Shown here one piece after another: positions 12,059 to 36,090 of a stretch of DNA of 37,627 nt (position 1 is its first letter; each line of letters begins with the position of its first letter). The position numbers were made by a program, and so were the translations under genes. Location of the stretch: IMG/VR virus record IMGVR_UViG_2778261216_000004; one strand, given 5' to 3'. The DNA comes from a virus (lineage: Duplodnaviria > Heunggongvirae > Uroviricota > Caudoviricetes). The notes beneath the pieces were generated by a model. It did not search any database. It was not told where the DNA came from and saw nothing but the letters and a program-made list of their open reading frames with translations.

Positions 12059-12637
12059 TTATTGTGGGGCGACTGGCCACTCAACATCCGCTGCTACCGC
12101 TGTATTAACACGATTCAACAATACCCGGTATGTCTTCCATGCAGCCAGTAACGATGCCTCTTCCTCCGTTGCAATATCCAAATCTACGGCATCCTGAAGT
12201 GGCGCAATATGCTCGCTGGCTACCTGCATCAGGCTGTTTTTTGTTTCTTCCGCCTCCCTTATCCGAAACAGTTTTTCTGCTTCTGCATCTTTCACCCAGG
12301 ATGTGCCGTTCCACTTCTGATACTCTCCATACGGCGACAACCAGGTAACATTTTCCGGTAATGGACCGAGTTCAGAAATAAATAACGAGTCCCCTGATGC
12401 CACGTCATAAACCGTTTTACCCCGATGGTCTTCAACGAGATGCCACGATGCCTCATCACTGTTGAAAACGGCCACGAAGCCAGCCGGAATATCTGGCGGG
12501 GCAATATCGGTACTGTTTGCAGGCAGACCTGTATGAGGCGGAATGTATGCGTCACCTTCACCAATAAATTCATTAGTTCCGGCCAGCAGATTATAAATTT
12601 TTATGGTCCGTGGTTGTTCACTCATTCTGAAATCCAT
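12059..12637 (-). CDS. G: Tail fibre assembly protein (G-like chaperone)
   Basis: Tfa-like N-terminus ([24 protein letters not shown]). Start set at an internal ATG 3 codons into the ORF. Confidence 0.8.
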
Positions 12638-27693: not shown

Positions 27694-28005
27694 TTATTCA
27701 GGAAATAACGCCCGGATATTTCCGGCCATCTGACTGGTTATCTGTGCGGTTGATACTGGCTGTGATGCGGGGCGTTCTGTCCTGGTTTGTGTCACTGATA
27801 ACGCTTCATCACCAGCCCATGCAGCCAGTCGATAAGCCTCTGCCGGATTCATTTTCAGAAGTGCCAGCCCGGCCAGAAAAGCCACGCGTTGGCCGCTTTT
27901 GCGGGCTTCTGGTGTAAGGCTGTCCAGCCAGGCGCATGCTTCTCCTTCGTTCTTGACGGCGGTGGGCTTCAGATAGAAACTTATCCGTCTGGTTGGAGTC
28001 GTCAT
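27694..28005 (-). CDS. parR: ParR-like DNA-binding adaptor
   Basis: RRISFYLKP...ARKSGQRVAFLAGLALL resembles R1 ParR (RRTIAFKLNP...RAALTAGLAL). AGGAG ribosome-binding site; the ATG lies 4 nt after the parM-like stop. Confidence 0.55.
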   Translation of the reverse strand: MTTPTRRISFYLKPTAVKNEGEACAWLDSLTPEARKSGQRVAFLAGLALLKMNPAEAYRLAAWAGDEALSVTQTRTERPASQPVSTAQITSQMAGNIRALFPE

Positions 28006-28009
28006 TGGT

Positions 28010-28969
28010 TTACTCCTTGTCCATTGCGTACAGCCCATTAACTAGAGCAAACTGTGGCACCCCGTCCGCGATGAAAGTCGCATTAACTCCGCAGGCTTCG
28101 CGGATAGCGGGTGCCACAATCTCCGCCCCTCCACCGACAACCATCACCCGCCCGTAACCCGAAAAACCCGCCAGCGCGCGGATCACGCGTTGTTTCAGTG
28201 TTTCTTCCTTTTCACGAATTACCGCCATCAGGCTGGCGTAATGCGCGTCATTGTGGATGTGCTGGCGCAGCCAGGCTTCATCATGGCGATGTTCGATAAT
28301 GGTATTGGCGATGTGGTGACTGGTGCGCATACCGTTAGTGGCCATCACCGACAGTACGGCATCGGCCATCAGAGAAACGCCCACGTGTGGATCGCAAAAC
28401 ACCTGGCTGATACCTGCCAGTTGCCCCTGAACCTTTGCCACATCCAGCGTGGTTCCGCCCAAATCCACAATCAGCAGGGATTCAAACGGACTCATGTCAG
28501 CCAGTGCCTTAAAGCCAGCCGGAATGGATTCAGGCATAACCCGTACGTTACGGATAGTGAATGCTTCGCCGTTCTGGTACTCCACCGGGCGCATGACGTT
28601 CGCTTTTTTGCGGTTGATGTTGGCCATGTCCGGCTGTGCGTTTGTATCGAAATACTCGCTTAGTGGCAGGGTGACAACCACATCCACTTCCTGTGGTGTG
28701 ATGCCTGATTTGACCAGCGCGTGATGAATGGCAATTATATTCACATCGCTGTACTGGTATTGCGTGTCGGTCGTCTGGACAAAGCGATCGCTGACCGGAT
28801 CAAAACCATAGCGCACGCCATCAAGCATGTAGTTCGCGGGCTGCGTGCCACCGAACGGCGCAGACCATTCCGACTTGAAGCTGTTCGGGCTGATGGCGTT
28901 GCGGCGTTCGCCGTTCTCAGTCCATGCCAGCTTGATGTTGGTGGAGCCGTCGTCGATACAAATTTTCAT
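28010..28969 (-). CDS. parM: ParM/StbA-like actin-like ATPase
   Basis: MKICIDDGSTNIKLAW...ISPNSFK...YQYSDVNIIAIHHAL...LIVDLGGTTLD...VGGGAE closely follows R1 ParM motifs (MLVFIDDGSTNIKLQW..., IIDLGGTTLD, VIGGGAE). Confidence 0.8.
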   Translation of the reverse strand: MKICIDDGSTNIKLAWTENGERRNAISPNSFKSEWSAPFGGTQPANYMLDGVRYGFDPVSDRFVQTTDTQYQYSDVNIIAIHHALVKSGITPQEVDVVVTLPLSEYFDTNAQPDMANINRKKANVMRPVEYQNGEAFTIRNVRVMPESIPAGFKALADMSPFESLLIVDLGGTTLDVAKVQGQLAGISQVFCDPHVGVSLMADAVLSVMATNGMRTSHHIANTIIEHRHDEAWLRQHIHNDAHYASLMAVIREKEETLKQRVIRALAGFSGYGRVMVVGGGAEIVAPAIREACGVNATFIADGVPQFALVNGLYAMDKE

Positions 28970-29006: not shown

Positions 29007-29112
29007 GGATTTTTAAATCCCGCTTTTGCCTGTTTTGTGCGCGCTTCATATATCGCGGCACGTTTTTTGCTCATTTACGGGATTTGTGAATCCCGTTTCT
29101 GTCTGTTTTTTG
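29007..29112. repeat. Two ~33-bp direct repeats, each a hairpin with a T-rich tail, spanning the A stop and the parM-like upstream region
   Basis: GGATTTTTAAATCCCGCTTTTGCCTGTTTTGTG (29007-29039) and GGGATTTGTGAATCCCGTTTCTGTCTGTTTTTTG (29079-29112). Confidence 0.45.
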
Positions 29113-31869
29113 TTCCCAACGGGTCAGGCCACCCCGCAGCAGGTCTGCTTTGCGGTGGGCGCGTTCAGTGGTTTCACTGATTCTCTGTGCGTGCTCTGCG
29201 TCACGGATGGCGCGCAGCATGTCAGAAAGCACGGTAACGGGTGTCTTCATGGTGTTCTGGTCTTGCTGAAGTGTGGATGCCAGGCGTGCGGCGGCTTCGG
29301 GGTCTGATGCCCCCAGCTGTTCCAGATAGCTGGCGACCGGGTTATGGCGGATCTCCGTGCTGCTTACGCCGTGATTACGGCTCAGGCGCTGCCAGAGCTG
29401 CGTGATTCGGCTGTCCGGGCGGGGATCCGGTTTGCGTACAATTTCAAATCCCTGCGGTGCAATGATGCTGCCGTCAACGTACAGACTGCCGCCCCGTAAC
29501 AGGTGCTGCATCTGTTGTTCACCGATATGCAGGCCGAGAGATTCAGCAGACTCCCGCCATTCTTTAGCGAGTAATTCGTGGTTATCAGGCAAAGGCCGCT
29601 GCTGTTTGCGGCTCTGTGTCCAGCCCTGCATTTCATCACTGCTATTTTTTGCCTGTTTGTCACGAAGCGAACGCATCAGCGCCCGGCGTTCGTGCCGTTT
29701 CAGTGAGCGCATCCATTCGTTCACTTCAACGCCGTCAGGGAGCTGCGGCCACGGTGCTGGCCGTTCTTCCGGCTGTTCTGTCCCGTTGTTGTCCGTTTCC
29801 TGTACACGGGGACAGTTATTGCCACGAGTCCAAGGGGCGGCAGGGCCGCCCTGAAGGTCAAAACCATTTTCGTGGGCGCTGTCTTCCGGTTCTGGTTTAC
29901 GTCTTACCAGCTTCCAGTTATCCGGATGCGTGCACACACGGGAGGATTCCCCGATGAGTGGTGACCAGATCCCGTAAATCTGTACGCTCTGTTCGCCGTA
30001 ATCGTTCAGCTCATCTGCGAGGTCGTAGGCGGTGCGAATCAGGTAGTCTTTGCGTGGAACAAGCACGCCGCCCTGTTTCTCTATGTAGGTGGCAAAACAT
30101 CCGGCATCAGCGGCAGCAAGAACCGCATCCATTGCGTCATTTTCCAGACGTTGCGGTCCCTGTGGGTTACGTGCCATCTGACAGGCAAGGCGGCGCAGTT
30201 CACGCCACACCTGACGGGAAGGGATGCCAAAGAACTGGAACTGGCGGACCCGGTGAAGGCGCGCCCAGCCGATGGCGCGTTCCACGCTTTCTGCCATCGT
30301 CTTTCCTGATTCGTCGTCGATGCGCGGTTTGCCTGTTTTCGGGTCAATGCCATCCACGGCGCGGCTGTCCAGGTTCTTTCCGATGTAGGTGGCGATGTAG
30401 CTGGTTGGTGTGCCTTTTGAGCCGTCGACGTACTCTGCCTTAAAGCGCGGAGTTATGTCATTGCCCAGCTCGTGGCGGTCTTCGCGAATGGCAATATCAC
30501 GGGTGATGTCCACGATGCTGTCGATTTCTTCAGGATGTGCAAAGACCATCATGTGCCAGTGCACGGTGCCGTCATGGTGAGGCTCCACCGTGCGAATGCC
30601 ATACCAGCGCAGGCCGTCGCGGTTCAGTTTTTTGCGGACCGCCTTAAAAAACGTGTTAACCAGGTAATCGCTGGAATCGCGCATGGTGGCCCCGTTCCAT
30701 TTGGGGTTCGGATGACCGTTCTCCGTTGTTGCGTGGTACTTCGAAGGGGTAGTGACAGTCAGAAACACCGCTTTGTCGCCACGGGCTTCGGCCAGAAGTT
30801 CCAGCCCCTTCATGGTGGCCATCATTTCTGCCTTACGGTGAACCGGGTTACTTACTCCCGCGTAATACACCGTCTCGAGATCAATCGTGAACCCGTCTTC
30901 ATTTTCCAGCATGAAACTTTTCAGGAAATCGCGTGTTTTCTCGCGCTGTGCGCGAAACTCGCTTAACGCGTCCTGGCTCAGATAGGGTGATGTTTTTCTG
31001 GAAACCAGACAGGCGGCGCGGAGTTGTTCTTCCCGCCACTCGCAACGTAACAGCCACAGTTTGCGTTTCCACCATTCTGCACAGGTCAGGCGAAGGATTG
31101 CGCCCGGCAGCAGCTCCGTGTCCGGTTCGTTCCTCCGGTCTTTGTCTGTTGTCAGTGCGTCATAATGTGGAGGCATGGCGTGCAGGTGTAACGCCATGCG
31201 GGCCAGCATCTGATACGCCTTCAGCGTTACATCCATGGTCAGTTCGCCATCGGTCGCGCCAAAGCCATCGCAGAGTTTTTCGAAGGTGCTGCTGAACATC
31301 GCCGCCGTCATGGTGGCCAGTGTCTGTATCTGGTGTTTGTTGAGCTGCGGCAGGTAAAGCAAATCGTCCAGGCGTTCGCGTCCGGCAAGGGAGCGATAAC
31401 CCTGTGTCAGCCAGCGGTGATCGGTGCGCTCCAGACGTTCGAATATTTTGCGCAGGTTTCCGCGCGCGTAGCGTTCAGCCTGCCAGCTCTTTTTGCCTTT
31501 CTGACGATCGGCTTCCTGTTTTTTGCGCAGGAAGGAGAGGTGGCGAATAAGCGGATCGCGCAGATAGGACGGCAGCAGGCGCAGCGAGGCCATGGCTTCA
31601 TCCACCGCGCCGCGTGCCTGTTTTCTGGCATCTCCTGCCAGTGTGATGGTTTTGTCCTGTTTTTCCTGTGCGTCCAAGCTTTTATTAATCAGGTTGCCCA
31701 GCGGCGTTGCGGAGAACGCCGCATCAGCCATTTCCTGGCGGCGCTCGTTCTCTACCCGGTAGGCATCCAGCCAGGAGGAAAGCGCGGATTCAGGAGCGGG
31801 GATCCCCGTTCCTTCACGCCCCACTGCGTGGCGCGGTTGTTGCCAGTCCCTGATGTACTCTGCCGTCAT
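29071..31869 (-). CDS. A: Replication initiation protein A (rolling-circle nickase family)
   Basis: 932 aa, large early protein in the P2 gene A position. Confidence 0.8.
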   Translation of the reverse strand: MTAEYIRDWQQPRHAVGREGTGIPAPESALSSWLDAYRVENERRQEMADAAFSATPLGNLINKSLDAQEKQDKTITLAGDARKQARGAVDEAMASLRLLPSYLRDPLIRHLSFLRKKQEADRQKGKKSWQAERYARGNLRKIFERLERTDHRWLTQGYRSLAGRERLDDLLYLPQLNKHQIQTLATMTAAMFSSTFEKLCDGFGATDGELTMDVTLKAYQMLARMALHLHAMPPHYDALTTDKDRRNEPDTELLPGAILRLTCAEWWKRKLWLLRCEWREEQLRAACLVSRKTSPYLSQDALSEFRAQREKTRDFLKSFMLENEDGFTIDLETVYYAGVSNPVHRKAEMMATMKGLELLAEARGDKAVFLTVTTPSKYHATTENGHPNPKWNGATMRDSSDYLVNTFFKAVRKKLNRDGLRWYGIRTVEPHHDGTVHWHMMVFAHPEEIDSIVDITRDIAIREDRHELGNDITPRFKAEYVDGSKGTPTSYIATYIGKNLDSRAVDGIDPKTGKPRIDDESGKTMAESVERAIGWARLHRVRQFQFFGIPSRQVWRELRRLACQMARNPQGPQRLENDAMDAVLAAADAGCFATYIEKQGGVLVPRKDYLIRTAYDLADELNDYGEQSVQIYGIWSPLIGESSRVCTHPDNWKLVRRKPEPEDSAHENGFDLQGGPAAPWTRGNNCPRVQETDNNGTEQPEERPAPWPQLPDGVEVNEWMRSLKRHERRALMRSLRDKQAKNSSDEMQGWTQSRKQQRPLPDNHELLAKEWRESAESLGLHIGEQQMQHLLRGGSLYVDGSIIAPQGFEIVRKPDPRPDSRITQLWQRLSRNHGVSSTEIRHNPVASYLEQLGASDPEAAARLASTLQQDQNTMKTPVTVLSDMLRAIRDAEHAQRISETTERAHRKADLLRGGLTRWEQKTDRNGIHKSRK

Positions 31870-31875
31870 AGTGAT

Positions 31876-32241
31876 TTACTTCGTCATGCCATTCAGGGTG
31901 TCGCGGCAGACTGTAGCCAGCCGCTGAATTTCCAGCACGGTGTCTTCTGTGTCGGCATGGCGATGTGTGATGCGGATGCTGTCGGCAATCACATCGACGA
32001 TTGCAGAGGATGGGCGCTGGTAAATGCCAATAACGGACGGGGTGCCACCTTCAATGCGGTAAAGCCTGTAATTTCCCTCGTGGCTGTCAATCATGTAGCG
32101 ACCATCAATAACAATATTTCCGTCAGCGAGCTGCGGTACAGGCAGGGATTTCAGGTACATGTCATAACGATCACGCACGCGAGCGGCAAGATCACGTTCT
32201 GTGTTGAGCAGGTATTCAAGAAAGTCGTTGGCGAGAATCAT
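31876..32241 (-). CDS. Hypothetical early protein
   Basis: 121 aa, AGAGGA ribosome-binding site, immediately upstream of A. Confidence 0.55.
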   Translation of the reverse strand: MILANDFLEYLLNTERDLAARVRDRYDMYLKSLPVPQLADGNIVIDGRYMIDSHEGNYRLYRIEGGTPSVIGIYQRPSSAIVDVIADSIRITHRHADTEDTVLEIQRLATVCRDTLNGMTK

Positions 32242-32313
32242 TGCGGCAATCCTCTTGTTACAGATGTGCGAAGGCCTCCCGCCGCAAGGTGCAGGAAAGG
32301 CCCGGAACAGGAG

Positions 32314-32544
32314 TTAATGGAGTTTGTTTTGCTGCTGGATGAGCTGTTGAAGCTCGTGCAGATCATCCGCCAGATAGCTGAAAACAGAGGCGGAATAAAT
32401 GTTTGATAGTGCGTGGCTGCGCTCATGCAGCATATTGATGTGCATGATTTGCGCGACGCGTGATGCGCGGGAAAGTCTGCGGTTGATTTCAGTCTGGATG
32501 TGACGACGCTCCGCGATAGCGCGGTGTGGTTTGCGGTTTGCCAT
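32314..32544 (-). CDS. Hypothetical small early protein
   Basis: 76 aa, weak ribosome-binding site. Confidence 0.4.
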   Translation of the reverse strand: MANRKPHRAIAERRHIQTEINRRLSRASRVAQIMHINMLHERSHALSNIYSASVFSYLADDLHELQQLIQQQNKLH

Positions 32545-32723
32545 GGTGTGGCCCCTTGTGTAGTAAGTTGTGAAAACTCACCATCCAGAGCTGCGAAACT
32601 GTGGGTGGCGAGACGTACGAGGTTCGCAGTACCGGCTACACAAGAACCCGGCCCGACCGAAGTCGGCCCCGTACGCCCCGCCATAATTCTGACGCGAAAA
32701 AGACGTGGCAATACAGTACGCAC

Positions 32724-32744
32724 AAAAAAACCGCTGGCGCGGTT
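32724..32744 (-). terminator. Rho-independent terminator on the minus strand inside the early region
   Basis: On the minus strand, AACCGC-gcca-GCGGTT followed by TTTTTTT. Confidence 0.55.
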
Positions 32745-32930
32745 GTGCGCTTGTGTAGTCAGCAGGCTGCGAAACCCGGCACCCGTTTTATGAGATGCAG
32801 CGGAAATGTAACCTGACTGATTGCGGCATGGCAAGCGGTTTTTGTGTTGCGTACAGTGGTGTGTATAATCGCGGCACAAAAATAGAACGTGCCGAAGGAT
32901 ACTGGCATTTATTGACAATGGAGGTCGCTT

Positions 32931-33398
32931 ATGTCTGTTGCTATGGAGCATGCAGATCAAGAATTCGTTTTCCATCTGTGGTACAGCTACTGGCTGGAAG
33001 AGATGGTTTTCATACTCAACAACAAGGCCGCTTTTGTGCTGCGCTCTGGAGCCTTGATTGCTGCGGTGTTGTCTTTTCTTCTGATTGAGTTCCCTGCCCT
33101 GATGAGTCTTTGCGGACTGGTGTTTTTTGGTTTTTCCTGGTTTTGCAGCAAGTGTGAATTCGTCGCCGAACTGGCGTGCTGGCAGAAACAGAGCTATCTG
33201 CGTCTGATTACGCAAAGGGATTTTATGACCACTGAACGCCTCACTGAGCGCATTCTGCATCTGGAAGAAACGAACAGCGCATACATGAAAGCGATTGTCA
33301 GGCCCGCAAAAAACAAAGCGAGTGCATCTGTTGGGTTGTCTGCCAGCGAACATTTGCGTTACTCCGAAAGGTTAATTTGCTGGTTGTGCAGTTTCTGA
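32931..33398 (+). CDS. Membrane protein with its own promoter, opposite in orientation to the early operon
   Basis: 155 aa with 2-3 hydrophobic segments and a coiled-coil C-terminus. GGAGG ribosome-binding site and a TATAAT -10 box at 32866-32871. Confidence 0.55.
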   Translation: MSVAMEHADQEFVFHLWYSYWLEEMVFILNNKAAFVLRSGALIAAVLSFLLIEFPALMSLCGLVFFGFSWFCSKCEFVAELACWQKQSYLRLITQRDFMTTERLTERILHLEETNSAYMKAIVRPAKNKASASVGLSASEHLRYSERLICWLCSF

Positions 33399-33463
33399 AC
33401 TGTGAAGAGCCTGTTGGCATCTCGGAAATGATGATGGATGTAATTCCTGGTGGTTGATGGTGC

Positions 33464-33730
33464 TCATGCTCTGGCTTCCTTCAGTAGCTGGTTAAACATG
33501 TGAGTAAGTGGATTGCTACACCCGAACGGCATCGGGTTTACGTGGTAAGAAGCCTGGCCTCCTGTTTTGCGAGCGCGACCACCTGTGCTGCGGTTTGTTC
33601 TGATGACTAAGCCGCCGCGCCAAAGTTGGCGTAACTCAGCATTAATGGCTGTGGTTGGAGTATTCAGTGCTGCGGCGATCTCTCCGCCGCTACACCCCGG
33701 ATGAGTAGCGATGTAGTCCAGAATGGTCAT
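33464..33730 (-). CDS. Small winged-helix-like DNA-binding protein
   Basis: 88 aa; GGEIAAALNTPTTAINAELRQLWRGGLV looks like a helix-turn-helix. Confidence 0.45.
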   Translation of the reverse strand: MTILDYIATHPGCSGGEIAAALNTPTTAINAELRQLWRGGLVIRTNRSTGGRARKTGGQASYHVNPMPFGCSNPLTHMFNQLLKEARA

Positions 33731-35802: not shown

Positions 35803-36090
35803 TTAAAGCCCCAGCCACAACAACCATGCATCGCGGCGTTCTTTCGGCTGATCAAAAAACGCTTTGCGCATACCTGCGTTAAATGCTGGCAGATATACCC
35901 AGTTTTCTGATGCTCGCGTCTTCACTGAACCTGGTTTCACAAAGTCAATCGTTGGTAACTTTGCAGCGTCAATCATGGTTCTGACGGTTGATTCTTTGCG
36001 ACCAATCATCTTGGCAAATAGTTGATATGGCACCGCTTCAAGTGGATATGGTGCTACCTGAATGAACCCCTCAAGCTCTGATTCGCTCAT
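35803..36090 (-). CDS. cox: Cox-like excisionase and lysis-lysogeny regulator
   Basis: PYQLFAKMIG...WVYLPAFNAG...WLLWLGL matches P2 Cox (IPYQEFAKLIG...YWVYLPAWNNG...WLMWLGL). AGGAG ribosome-binding site. Confidence 0.8.
   Translation of the reverse strand: MSESELEGFIQVAPYPLEAVPYQLFAKMIGRKESTVRTMIDAAKLPTIDFVKPGSVKTRASENWVYLPAFNAGMRKAFFDQPKERRDAWLLWLGL

What the first reader, a model, noticed from the sequence alone, without database searches (positions are those of the whole stretch)
32931..33398. Membrane-protein gene with its own promoter, opposite in orientation to the early operon
Seen in sequence: a plus-strand 155-aa ORF with a GGAGG ribosome-binding site and an upstream TATAAT box, embedded among minus-strand early genes, with hydrophobic segments and a coiled-coil tail. 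No minus-strand coding is convincing across its span. Inference: an accessory gene that can be expressed in the lysogen independently of the lytic promoter; small membrane proteins at such positions often mediate superinfection exclusion or abortive infection.
Basis: inference. Interest (0 to 1): 0.45.

Follow-up and report, generated by a model that had tools for sequence, protein, structure and literature searches.

The report
Inverted prophage membrane-protein accessory gene
This is a real but rarely carried gene for a 155-residue inner-membrane protein that sits backwards in the early region of a P2-like E. coli prophage, probably serving the lysogen (most likely by excluding other phages), and its opposite strand is unusually free of stop codons.

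Summary
The plus-strand ORF 32931-33398 is a genuine gene. Within E. coli its dN/dS is 0.18 and variation is concentrated at third codon positions. It matches phrog_6315 at E=1e-27, and the AlphaFold model scores pLDDT 88. It encodes a two-transmembrane helical hairpin, predicted N-in/C-in, with a conserved cytoplasmic helical domain.

It lies in a discrete 599-bp cassette (32848-33446). That cassette replaces a co-oriented 99-aa early gene in otherwise about 97% identical P2-like prophages. It is present in 12 of 5426 complete E. coli genomes, while the neighbouring isrK-C4 module is in 1163.

Relatives form a small orphan family (62 clusters at 90% identity, named members all Enterobacterales, no Pfam domain). 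They always point against the lytic genes in P2/186-like, Mu-like and lambdoid prophages. A conserved -10 element supports an own promoter. Expression in the lysogen and an anti-phage role remain inferences. SLATT membership is not supported.

A 371-codon minus-strand ORF with a Shine-Dalgarno sequence overlaps 141 codons. Across the family, the three sense codons that would create antisense stops are almost absent, but only in P2-like contexts (Fisher P=8e-18). This suggests the early lytic mRNA must stay translatable across the inverted cassette.

The parts
32848..33446 (.). Accessory cassette of 599 bp. It replaces a 298-bp segment that carries a 99-aa minus-strand gene in close relatives.
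   Evidence: BLAST of the window against L027 shows homology of 83-97% up to 32847 and again from 33447, with nothing in between. Phage relatives align only outside this stretch. E. coli loci that carry the ORF align from 32859/32862 to 33389-33460.
32842..32869 (+). Promoter-like site TTGTGT-16 nt-TATAAT. The -35 lies in the backbone and the -10 in the cassette. The predicted start is near A32876.
   Evidence: Read from sequence. TATAAT is conserved in six E. coli loci. TTGTGT-16-TAGAAT is found in the 37%-identical allele L025. The consensus score alone is not significant, 51 of 500 shuffles.
32872..32894 (.). Inverted repeat CGGCAC-N11-GTGCCG overlapping the predicted start site. It could be an operator or an RNA hairpin.
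   Evidence: The fold of 32872-32945 gives -19 kcal/mol, z=-1.9. There is one compensatory A:T to G:C change in the other E. coli loci. It is not conserved in L025.
32920..32924 (+). Shine-Dalgarno sequence GGAGG, 6 nt before the ATG.
   Evidence: All family members have a GGAG or AGGA-type site at a similar spacing.
32931..33398 (+). Gene for the 155-aa membrane protein. An identical 613-bp stretch in NZ_CP145668.1 is annotated WP_096849561.1, 'hypothetical protein'.
   Evidence: dN/dS 0.18. phrog_6315 at E=1.1e-27. AF2 pLDDT 88, pTM 0.77. Annotated by PGAP.
33027..33149 (+). Two-transmembrane hairpin. TM1 is residues 33-52 (33027-33086), the turn is E53-F-P55, and TM2 is residues 56-73 (33096-33149).
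   Evidence: Kyte-Doolittle 19-residue windows above 1.6 span residues 32-72. The model has helices 2-50 and 55-98. Basic residues flank both outer ends in the family consensus.
32238..33353 (-). Antisense open reading frame of 371 codons. It comprises the antisense of the cassette, then an 'Ash-like' stretch over isrK and C4, then an alternative frame over the derepression gene. It ends in an ATGA overlap with the orf121 start at 32241.
   Evidence: SD GGAG lies 8 nt upstream. Pfam Phage_ASH matches aa 182-275 at E=9e-6. Equivalent ORFs of 205-220 aa exist in relatives without the cassette. dN/dS is 1.34 within the cassette part.
33372..33467 (-). A 31-codon remnant ORF. Its first 7 codons come from the replaced 99-aa gene. 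Its ATG overlaps the MarR-like stop (ATGA). It is in the same frame as the 371-codon ORF, separated from it by one TAA, which is the reverse complement of sense codon Leu148 (TTA).
   Evidence: Translation. Junction comparison.
32805..32834 (-). isrK promoter TTGCCA-18-TACATT. Its -35 lies 7 bp from the -35 of the ORF promoter, in a back-to-back arrangement.
   Evidence: The 5' end of isrK at 32798 fits.
32724..32798 (-). isrK (seqA-like) small RNA with its intrinsic terminator at 32744-32729.
   Evidence: Rfam RF01394, 63 bits against a gathering score of 50. Terminator.
32601..32688 (-). C4/CI-type antisense RNA.
   Evidence: Rfam RF01695, 83.2 bits against a gathering score of 45.
32314..32544 (-). 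Derepression (antirepressor) protein of 76 aa, downstream of the two RNAs.
   Evidence: Pfam PF25738 at E=7e-8. phrog_3688.
33464..33730 (-). MarR-like winged-helix early gene, the last early gene before the cassette.
   Evidence: Pfam MarR_2 at E=1e-6. PGAP annotation.

Best explanation
The finding is a self-contained accessory ('moron') cassette that a P2-like, P88/Xuanwuvirus-type E. coli prophage carries in inverted orientation. It sits at the junction between the Pe early operon and the isrK-C4-antirepressor-gpA unit.

What the sequence and comparisons establish:
- The plus-strand gene is under purifying selection.
- It encodes a small protein predicted to sit in the inner membrane. The N-terminal helix and the conserved C-terminal helical domain are predicted to face the cytoplasm. 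Only a 3-5-residue turn is predicted to face the periplasm.
- It is optional cargo, and it always points with the repressor/integrase genes and against the lytic genes.

Inferred:
- It is transcribed in the lysogen from its own sigma-70 promoter (TTGTGT-16-TATAAT).
- The protein acts in the lysogen's membrane for the benefit of host and prophage.
- The most likely action is to interfere with infection by other phages. It could block a membrane-level step of genome entry, or it could act as a membrane-perturbing abortive-infection effector controlled through its cytoplasmic domain.

Second layer, part shown and part inferred:
- Because the cassette lies backwards in the path of the early lytic transcript, its antisense frame is kept free of stops. 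In this window that frame is fused in frame to the backbone's long ORF over isrK and C4.
- The inference is that ribosomes can follow RNA polymerase across about 1.1 kb. That stretch would otherwise be untranslated and rich in terminators, and it precedes the replication gene.
For: Real gene:
- dN/dS is 0.18 with third-position variation dominant.
- phrog_6315 matches at E=1e-27 over residues 9-154.
- The family has 62 clusters, all about 150-165 aa.
- The AF2 model is confident.

Membrane topology:
- The hydropathy profile shows the hydrophobic stretch.
- Basic residues flank both cytoplasmic ends of the hairpin in the alignment.

Cassette and optional status:
- Exact junctions were mapped against L027.
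- Near-identical relatives carry a 99-aa co-oriented gene, or SPFH/ead genes, in the same slot.
- The ORF is in 12 of 5426 genomes, against 1163 for the flanking isrK-C4 module.

Orientation rule:
- It runs against the early genes in P2/186-like prophages of E. coli, Serratia, Yersinia, Sodalis, Regiella, Pectobacterium and Brenneria, and in unnamed IMG/VR viral contigs.
- It runs against the late genes in a Mu-like Salmonella prophage.
- It lies next to a cI-type repressor in a lambdoid contig.

Benefit independent of the phage:
- The gene is intact in a decayed prophage scrap between a type I R-M system and Hhe.

Own promoter:
- The -10 element is conserved.
- Pectobacterium has its own strong terminator after the gene.
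- General principle: genes encoded antisense to prophage lytic genes are typical accessory loci expressed in lysogens (PMC7067206).

Antisense layer:
- The 371-codon ORF has an SD and ends in an ATGA overlap with orf121.
- In 9 P2-context loci TTA is 3 and CTA is 1 of 155 Leu codons, and TCA is 0 of 127 Ser codons. About 51 such codons are expected from neighbours' codon usage.
- Control codons are used normally in the same genes: GTA, ATA, CCA, ACA, GCA, AGA and AGG.
- Ten clade representatives in P2 contexts have 5 such codons among 310 Leu+Ser codons. Non-P2 contexts have 34 among 104, P=8e-18.
- The minus-strand RNA over the cassette is 28% C and 20% G.
Against: - There is no experimental or annotation evidence for any function. 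PADLOC, NCBIfam and Pfam are empty. The PDB sequence and fold searches give only generic helical hairpins.
- The promoter is not significant by consensus score.
- No terminator follows the gene in the window.
- A single small protein with almost no periplasmic exposure and no sensor partner is not a typical exclusion or Abi system.
- Most relatives outside E. coli have a conserved upstream micro-ORF that this copy lacks. The E. coli version may therefore work or be regulated differently.
- For the antisense layer, in the window alone an antisense-stop-free run of 147 codons is not rare. It occurs in 11.6% of such windows in its own genes.
- The Mu-like Salmonella copy sits inside a run of late genes yet has a closed antisense frame.
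- In several genera, gaps of 60-190 nt remain between the antisense ORF and the next early gene.
Confidence: 0.5

Rival explanations
1. The protein is a SLATT-type two-TM pore-forming suicide effector. On this view it is a true member of the SMODS/SLOG-associated 2TM superfamily acting in abortive infection.
For: The architecture is similar: an N-terminal helix, a 2TM hairpin and C-terminal helices. SLATT-annotated giant-virus proteins recur among the top BFVD Foldseek hits: 8 of the top 27, with probabilities up to 0.97 and TM-scores of 0.3-0.63 normalised to the query. One family member gives a co-linear SLATT_4 match covering residues 47-142 against profile positions 58-165.
Confidence: 0.15
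2. The minus-strand ORF is the real (early) gene, and the plus-strand 155-aa ORF is a shadow.
For: The long minus-strand ORF has an SD. The depositors of Yersinia phage vB_YenM_42.18 annotated the antisense ORF, gp08, and not the 155-aa gene. The antisense frame is open in all P2-context members.
Against: Substitutions concentrate at plus-frame third positions, and the minus frame has dN/dS 1.34. The plus-strand protein is intact and conserved where the antisense frame is closed, with 7, 16 and 11 antisense stops in L014, L031 and L041. The plus-strand protein folds confidently and matches a PHROG. The antisense products match no PHROG or Pfam family outside the Ash-like part. The 371-codon ORF runs across two RNA genes and across another gene in a different frame.
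Confidence: 0.03
3. Both strands encode functional proteins, forming a true antisense overlapping gene pair. The membrane protein would be made in lysogeny and a hydrophilic early protein would be made from the opposite strand in lytic growth.
For: The antisense frame shows the same stop-codon depletion and the same context dependence. Start codons with SD-like sequences occur in several clades.
Against: The antisense amino-acid sequence is unconstrained within the E. coli clade. Start positions are not conserved between clades. The ORF length varies from 189 to 371 aa and depends on what lies next to the cassette. No family is recognised.
Confidence: 0.12
4. The protein is not anti-phage. It would modify host physiology or the prophage's own lysogeny control, for example by interacting with a membrane protein or a stress pathway, or by tuning the adjacent isrK/antirepressor module through the shared divergent promoter region.
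For: Its promoter is back to back with the isrK promoter, with the two -35 elements 7 bp apart. In Pectobacterium and Brenneria the cassette lies between cox and the repressor gene. The conserved surface is cytoplasmic. No defence-database hit was found.
Against: The family also occurs far from any isrK module: Serratia and Yersinia loci give no Rfam hit, and Mu-like and lambdoid contexts exist. The patchy 1% carriage and the survival in a defence island fit conflict-related cargo better.
Confidence: 0.2
5. The protein is the membrane toxin of a small toxin/antidote or leader-peptide-gated module. In most relatives a conserved acidic micro-ORF precedes it, and the E. coli copy would be a derivative that lost this partner.
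For: The micro-ORF is 26-45 aa with the motif '..FH[VI]LHKP[AE]PP[ED]..acidic*'. Its stop lies 5-6 nt before the ATG, and it is conserved from P2-like to lambdoid contexts, with mostly third-position changes. A structured leader with compensatory pairs precedes it. The stretch after TM2 is basic in the micro-ORF-bearing clades.
Against: The window's copy, the L025 clade and the Salmonella copy lack the micro-ORF yet are intact and under purifying selection. No toxicity data exist. Nothing in the window resembles the peptide.
Confidence: 0.1

Closest known systems
Prophage accessory ('moron') loci encoded antisense to lytic genes. Examples are P2 tin/old/fun, lambda bor/lom, and STMMW_20121 of ST64B (PMC7067206).
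   Same: It is optional cargo and a discrete cassette. Its orientation is against the lytic genes and it has promoter-like elements of its own. Carriage is patchy.
   Different: It lies not in the described P2 defence hotspot near the gpA/portal junction (PMC9122126) but in a slot between the last Pe-operon gene and the isrK promoter. Its product family has no known function. Its antisense frame is kept open.
Small inner-membrane superinfection-exclusion or abortive-infection proteins: T4 Imm, P22 SieA/SieB, HK97 gp15, lambda RexB (own knowledge).
   Same: It is a small prophage- or phage-encoded inner-membrane protein, plausibly made in the lysogen.
   Different: No sequence relationship was detected by Pfam, PHROGs or PADLOC. 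Almost the whole soluble mass is cytoplasmic. No phenotype is known.
SLATT (SMODS- and SLOG-associating 2TM effector) domains (Burroughs et al. 2015, own knowledge; Pfam SLATT_1-6).
   Same: It has a long helical hairpin with two TM segments plus flanking cytoplasmic helices. SLATT proteins recur among the best structural neighbours.
   Different: It is below every significance threshold by sequence and by fold. It stands alone without a nucleotide-signalling partner.
Translation-dependent bypass of RNA immunity in satellite P4. Translation of the nested kil/eta genes across the seqA/cI region prevents CI-RNA-dependent termination (Forti et al. 1999, own knowledge; P4 CI/seqA summarised in PMC4825925).
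   Same: A long ORF in the direction of the lytic transcript overlies the isrK (seqA-like) and C4 (CI-like) RNAs and their terminators. It is coupled to the downstream genes. In the window this ORF starts inside the inverted cassette.
   Different: Nothing here is shown experimentally. The helper-type phage carries the module, not a satellite. The stop-free antisense frame also occurs in genera whose loci gave no isrK or C4 hit.
isrK-orf45-anrP locus of Salmonella prophage Gifsy-1 (PMC4825925).
   Same: The immediate neighbour of the finding has the same parts in the same order: isrK with its own promoter and terminator, a C4-like RNA, then a small antirepressor-type gene.
   Different: That locus is the neighbour of the finding, not the finding itself. 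The 155-aa gene is not part of it and is absent from about 99% of E. coli genomes that have the module.

Membership tests
phrog_6315 (phage protein family of unknown function) | Significant full-length match to the family HMM. | tested here: met
   E=1.1e-27, 97.7 bits, residues 9-154 against profile positions 4-148 of 152.
Moron / prophage accessory locus | Dispensable insertion: present or absent between otherwise near-identical phage genomes. | tested here: met
   The 599-bp cassette replaces 298 bp in L027 and L001, with flanks 83-97% identical. It is in 12 genomes against 1163.
Moron / prophage accessory locus | Own promoter and terminator, forming an autonomous transcription unit. | tested here: inconclusive
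   A -10 element is conserved across alleles and genera. A terminator is present in Pectobacterium. However, the consensus score is not above chance and no terminator is found in the window.
Moron / prophage accessory locus | Expressed from the repressed prophage. | not testable with these tools
   This needs RNA-seq or TSS mapping of a lysogen.
SLATT 2TM effector superfamily | Match to a SLATT profile above the curated threshold. | tested here: not met
   The best match is SLATT_4 at E=0.11 and 12.7 bits (cutoff 27), in 1 of 53 members. The window protein and the family consensus give no match.
SLATT 2TM effector superfamily | Significant structural similarity to SLATT proteins. | tested here: inconclusive
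   BFVD Foldseek puts SLATT proteins among the top hits, but with E from 0.14 to 1.7 and query-normalised TM-scores of 0.3-0.63. The AFDB libraries were unavailable. The PDB has no informative neighbour.
SLATT 2TM effector superfamily | Genomic association with SMODS, SLOG, TIR, reverse transcriptase or other sensor/signalling genes. | tested here: not met
   It is a single-gene cassette, or micro-ORF plus gene, in all contexts examined. No constant partner with a known domain was seen.
Known anti-phage defence systems (PADLOC-DB v2) | Match to any defence-protein model. | tested here: not met
   No family at E<=1.
Holins | Match to a holin family and location in the lysis cassette, co-oriented with the late genes. 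| tested here: not met
   Only isolated sub-threshold hits (E 0.04-0.1) in single members. The gene lies in the early region, inverted.
Antisense overlapping protein-coding gene pair | Purifying selection on the amino-acid sequence of the second (minus) frame. | tested here: not met
   The minus register-0 frame has dN/dS 1.34 among E. coli alleles. Start sites and lengths are not conserved. Only the absence of stops is conserved.

The most novel reading that the evidence does not exclude
The cassette would be constrained on both strands for different reasons. The plus strand encodes the lysogen's membrane protein. The minus strand is selected only to stay translatable.

On this reading, in P2/186-like phages an inverted accessory gene is tolerated inside the early region only if ribosomes can follow RNA polymerase across it on the lytic transcript. 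That would prevent Rho-dependent polarity on the downstream replication genes. In the E. coli clade it would also let ribosomes run through the isrK and C4 terminators. This would be a design rule for inverted morons for which one literature search here turned up no description. It would be visible as near-total avoidance of TTA, CTA and TCA codons.
Probability: 0.35. Interest if true: 0.65.

Novelty: new member of a known kind. Interest (0 to 1): 0.45.

Why it matters
Taken alone, the gene is one more uncharacterised prophage accessory membrane protein. It is worth a phage-challenge experiment because it is compact (a 0.6-kb cassette), rare, mobile between phage types, and retained in a defence island. 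It is not surprising in kind.

Two things raise it above the ordinary.

First, it defines a cargo slot in P2-like phages of E. coli, next to the isrK promoter. This slot is separate from the hotspot near gpA described in PMC9122126. Other phages hold SPFH, ead/Ea22-like or small unknown genes there.

Second, the family shows a clean, context-dependent depletion of the three codons that would create antisense stops. If this reflects a need to keep the early transcript translated across an inverted insert, two consequences follow. It would explain how morons can be placed backwards inside essential operons of phages without a known antitermination system acting on their early operon. It would also warn annotators that long antisense ORFs of this kind are selected without necessarily encoding functional proteins. 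One deposited Yersinia phage genome already annotates the wrong strand.

Tried and rejected
- Pfam, NCBIfam and PADLOC scans of the protein gave nothing usable. The weak DUF2279, ATP-synt_I, HemY_N and Imm17 hits all cover the 2TM hairpin and lie below the cutoffs.
- The AFDB fold library was not available.
- SLATT membership was pursued with individual members, the family consensus and 53 members. It is not supported.
- I tested whether the consensus promoter is beyond chance. It is not.
- I looked for a terminator after the gene in the window. None was found.
- I looked for the relatives' micro-ORF upstream of the window's gene. It is absent.
- I assumed the window was identical to NZ_CP145668.1. 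This is wrong outside the right-hand ~10 kb, because coordinates differ upstream of about 27 kb. I therefore did not transfer that record's annotation to the rest of the window.
- A comparison with a DUF4760 gene annotated in that record failed for the same reason and was dropped.
- The idea that the gene is functionally tied to isrK/C4 was rejected as a general rule. Serratia, Yersinia and Mu-like loci have no such RNAs at the Rfam gathering threshold.
- One literature search for an earlier description of antisense-stop avoidance in inverted prophage genes found nothing relevant.
Full report
**Setting**

The window is a P2-like E. coli prophage of the P88/Xuanwuvirus type.
- Its right-hand part reads, on the minus strand: cox (35803-36090), a string of small early genes, a MarR-like gene (33464-33730), a P4-epsilon-like 'derepression' gene (32314-32544), orf121 (31876-32241) and the replication endonuclease gpA (29071-31869).
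- The repressor and integrase genes are on the plus strand at the far right.
- The 613 bp around the finding are 100% identical to E. coli S1-CHI-01-A (NZ_CP145668.1). The rest of the window is not collinear with that record.
- Rfam finds two RNA genes on the minus strand just left of the finding: isrK (32724-32798, 63 bits) and a C4/CI-type antisense RNA (32601-32688, 83 bits).
- isrK has its own promoter (TTGCCA-18-TACATT, 32834..32805) and terminator.
- Together with the derepression gene, these form a module with the same parts as the Gifsy-1 isrK-orf45-anrP locus. It resembles the seqA/CI immunity region of P4 (PMC4825925).

- the 155-codon plus-strand ORF;
- GGAGG, 6 nt upstream of the ATG;
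- TATAAT at 32864-32869;
- the all-minus neighbourhood.

The ORF is a true gene.
- Among six E. coli alleles (86-100% protein identity), variable columns fall 19/12/38 on codon positions 1/2/3, and dN/dS is 0.18. The other five frames give 0.31 to 2.1.
- It matches phrog_6315 end to end (E=1e-27).
- PGAP calls it in all twelve complete E. coli genomes that carry it.
- Hydropathy shows one 40-residue hydrophobic block (33-72), broken by E53-F-P55.
- An AlphaFold2 model from a 22-sequence alignment is confident (pLDDT 88, pTM 0.77). It shows two long antiparallel helices (2-50 and 55-98) followed by three short ones.
- In the family consensus, basic residues flank both outer ends of the hairpin: 'NRR' before TM1 and 'GKKAE.ARQQAKRY' after TM2. 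The turn is uncharged.
- The predicted topology is therefore N-in/C-in, with nearly all soluble mass in the cytoplasm. This is an inference from the positive-inside rule.
- The 'coiled-coil tail' is better described as a helical stalk plus a small bundle.

**What it is**

BLAST against a near-identical backbone (L027) places the boundaries at 32848 and 33446.
- These 599 bp replace 298 bp that encode a co-oriented 99-aa early gene (phrog_4144).
- The first seven codons of that gene survive as a scar.
- Other relatives hold SPFH, ead/Ea22-like or other small genes in the same slot.
- The flanking isrK-C4 module occurs in 1163 of 5426 complete E. coli genomes, while the ORF occurs in 12.
- In strain MDK9L1, the ORF and a piece of isrK are the only intact remains of a prophage, among IS fragments between a type I R-M system and the Hhe defence gene.

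The family is small.
- An exhaustive phmmer search of 1.84 billion representatives found 10 clusters.
- Profile searches found 25 and then 62 clusters at 90% identity. All are about 150-165 aa, none has a Pfam domain, and every member with a source name comes from Enterobacterales.

In every genomic context recovered, the gene points against the lytic genes and with the repressor/integrase genes:
- inside the early region of P2/186-like prophages of Serratia, Yersinia, Sodalis, Regiella and unnamed IMG/VR contigs;
- between cox and the repressor gene in Pectobacterium and Brenneria, where it has a 14-bp-stem terminator of its own and the Pe-like promoter lies beyond it;
- among late genes of a Mu-like Salmonella prophage;
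- at prophage ends;
- next to a cI-type repressor in a lambdoid contig.

This is the signature of a moron. PMC7067206 describes antisense placement as characteristic of accessory loci.

**Promoter**

By consensus score, TTGTGT-16-TATAAT is unremarkable. It scores 9 of 12, and 51 of 500 shuffles do as well. The stock scan did not list it.

The support is comparative:
- The -10 is invariant in six E. coli loci.
- A 37%-identical allele in the same slot (L025) has TAGAAT at the same 16-nt distance from the same backbone -35.
- In seven loci from six other genera, the only invariant block upstream is TGnTAnnnT. This is the pattern of an extended -10. It sits between a terminator-like hairpin and a second hairpin that shows six compensatory pairs.

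The -35 lies 7 bp from the -35 of the divergent isrK promoter. An inverted repeat (32872-32894) overlaps the predicted start and shows one compensatory change. Its role is unknown. Expression in the lysogen is therefore plausible but not shown.

**Function**

No database gives a lead.
- The only recurring theme is SLATT. SLATT-annotated giant-virus proteins are common among the best BFVD neighbours, but at E of 0.14 or higher. One of 53 members gives a co-linear SLATT_4 match at E=0.11.
- I therefore do not file the protein under SLATT. The resemblance is architectural only.

My best reading is a lysogen-expressed inner-membrane protein that protects the lysogen, most likely against other phages. 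This reading draws on its position, orientation, patchy carriage, mobility between phage types, survival in a defence island, and a non-enzymatic membrane architecture with a conserved cytoplasmic face. The conserved positions include E23, Y89, L92, the 'EE.DS' motif and the 'NPA.N.A' motif. Whether it blocks entry or triggers membrane failure cannot be decided here. I give the defence reading about 0.5 overall.

**The minus strand**

- A 371-codon minus-strand ORF (33353..32238) has GGAG 8 nt before its ATG and overlaps 141 sense codons.
- It then continues in frame into a backbone ORF that overlies isrK, C4 and the derepression gene (the last in another frame).
- It ends in an ATGA overlap with the orf121 start.
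- Its middle matches Pfam Phage_ASH and several PHROGs labelled as regulators.
- Relatives without the cassette have the same ORF at 205-220 codons. It starts 12-14 nt after the preceding gene and ends in the same ATGA.
- Upstream, the MarR-like stop overlaps the ATG of the 31-codon scar ORF. That ORF is in the same frame and is separated from the long ORF by a single TAA.

Within the cassette, this frame is the exact antisense register. Its stops can therefore arise only from sense codons TTA, CTA and TCA.
- The window gene has one such codon among 36 Leu+Ser codons, against 5.1 expected.
- This is weak evidence alone, because 11.6% of 147-codon windows in the phage's own genes are equally free of them.
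- Across nine P2-context loci from different clades, the pooled counts are TTA 3, CTA 1 and TCA 0, against about 51 expected.
- The same genes use GTA, ATA, CCA, ACA, GCA, AGA and AGG freely, and CTT is their commonest Leu codon. This excludes ordinary codon bias.
- Twenty further IMG/VR loci behave the same way.
- By contrast, the Mu-like Salmonella copy has 7 such codons. The lambdoid-context copy L031 and its close relative L041, whose contig gave no gpA, cox, repressor or integrase match, have 16 and 11.
- Ten P2-context clade representatives give 5 of 310 Leu+Ser codons, and non-P2 contexts give 34 of 104 (Fisher P=8e-18).
- The antisense amino-acid sequence is not conserved (dN/dS 1.34). 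Start sites and lengths differ between clades.

What is selected is therefore openness, not a protein sequence.

The explanation I favour, as inference, is that the early lytic transcript must remain covered by ribosomes across the inverted insert.
- An untranslated stretch of 0.6-1.1 kb that is richer in C than in G (28% against 20%) would invite Rho-dependent polarity on gpA.
- That untranslated mRNA is prone to Rho-dependent termination is established knowledge. A Rho review in the library, PMC12360218, surfaced but was not read.
- In the E. coli clade, ribosomes would also run through the isrK and C4 terminators. This would be analogous to translation of kil/eta across the P4 immunity region (own knowledge).

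Three caveats apply:
- The Mu-like copy sits among late genes with a closed antisense frame.
- Gaps of 60-190 nt remain in some genera.
- A real antisense protein is not excluded.

**Relatives' extra parts**

Most non-E. coli members carry a conserved micro-ORF of 26-45 aa. It ends '..FH[VI]LHKP[AE]PP[ED]..' followed by an acidic tail, with its stop 5-6 nt before the main ATG. It is present even in the most divergent lambdoid member. It is absent from the window, from the L025 clade and from the Salmonella Mu-like copy. It could be a leader or arrest peptide, or a small partner protein. It is not part of the window's feature, but it bears on how the family is regulated.

**Verdict**

The interpretation as an independently expressed accessory membrane protein is well supported comparatively, but the function is unproven. 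In kind it is a new, uncharacterised member of the familiar class of prophage morons. The selected stop-free antisense frame is the unusual part and deserves an experiment.

Noticed in passing
window 32314-32834 (-): An isrK (seqA-like) RNA with its own promoter and terminator, a C4/CI-type antisense RNA, and a P4-epsilon-like 'derepression' gene form an RNA-controlled antirepressor module just upstream of orf121 and gpA. It has the same parts as Gifsy-1 isrK-orf45-anrP. It is present in 1163 of 5426 complete E. coli genomes.
   Followed up: partly
window 32238-32855 (-); L001 2839-3456; L028 1194-1856: A long 'Ash-like' ORF in the early-transcript direction overlies isrK, C4 and the derepression gene (the last in another frame). 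It matches Pfam Phage_ASH and PHROGs labelled as regulators. It always starts within 12-14 nt of the preceding gene and ends in an ATGA overlap with orf121. It could be a real protein, or a translated spacer that lets ribosomes run through the RNA terminators.
   Followed up: partly
L010 5899-5994; L015 5882-5995; L021 4876-4995; L031 and others, upstream of the 155-aa gene: A conserved micro-ORF of 26-45 aa precedes the gene in most non-E. coli relatives. Its N-terminus is unconserved, its motif is '..FH[VI]LHKP[AE]PP[ED]..' with an acidic C-terminus, and its stop lies 5-6 nt before the main ATG. The proline-rich motif near the C-terminus suggests an arrest or leader peptide, or a small acidic partner. 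It is absent from the window.
   Followed up: partly
L010 5790-5905, L021 4765-4880, L023, L018, L029, L030: These relatives share a conserved leader. It has a terminator-like hairpin with compensatory changes and a T-run, then an invariant TGnTAnnnT (extended -10 pattern), then a second hairpin with six compensatory pairs, all upstream of the micro-ORF. There is no Rfam match.
   Followed up: partly
L006 3803-4468 (Yersinia phage vB_YenM_42.18, NC_070913, gp08): The deposited annotation calls the 221-aa antisense ORF and omits the conserved 155-aa gene on the other strand. This is probably a strand mis-annotation caused by the stop-free antisense frame.
   Followed up: yes
L004 3618-4982 (E. 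coli MDK9L1, NZ_CP081333.1): The 155-aa gene and part of isrK are the only intact remains of a P2-like prophage. They are flanked by pseudogenes and IS fragments and lie between a type I R-M/M48 peptidase pair and the Hhe anti-phage gene.
   Followed up: partly
window 32872-32894: An inverted repeat CGGCAC-N11-GTGCCG overlaps the predicted transcription start of the 155-aa gene. Other E. coli loci show one compensatory A:T to G:C change. It could be an operator or an RNA hairpin on either transcript.
   Followed up: partly
window 27694-28969 (-): A ParM-like segregation ATPase and a small partition/stability protein lie immediately downstream of gpA. This is a plasmid-type partition pair inside an integrated P2-like prophage.
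   Followed up: no
window 12096-12294 (-): A full-length Rfam IS009 match (192 bits). In the related prophage record these coordinates fall among tail-fibre assembly genes, but the window is not collinear with that record here.
   Followed up: no
L028 1870-3214 (E. coli EC42405) and L001 3468-3767: The slot between the MarR-like gene and the isrK promoter is a variable cargo site. In different prophages it holds an SPFH-domain gene plus ead/Ea22-like genes, a 99-aa phrog_4144 gene, or the inverted 155-aa cassette. It is distinct from the published P2 hotspot near gpA.
   Followed up: partly
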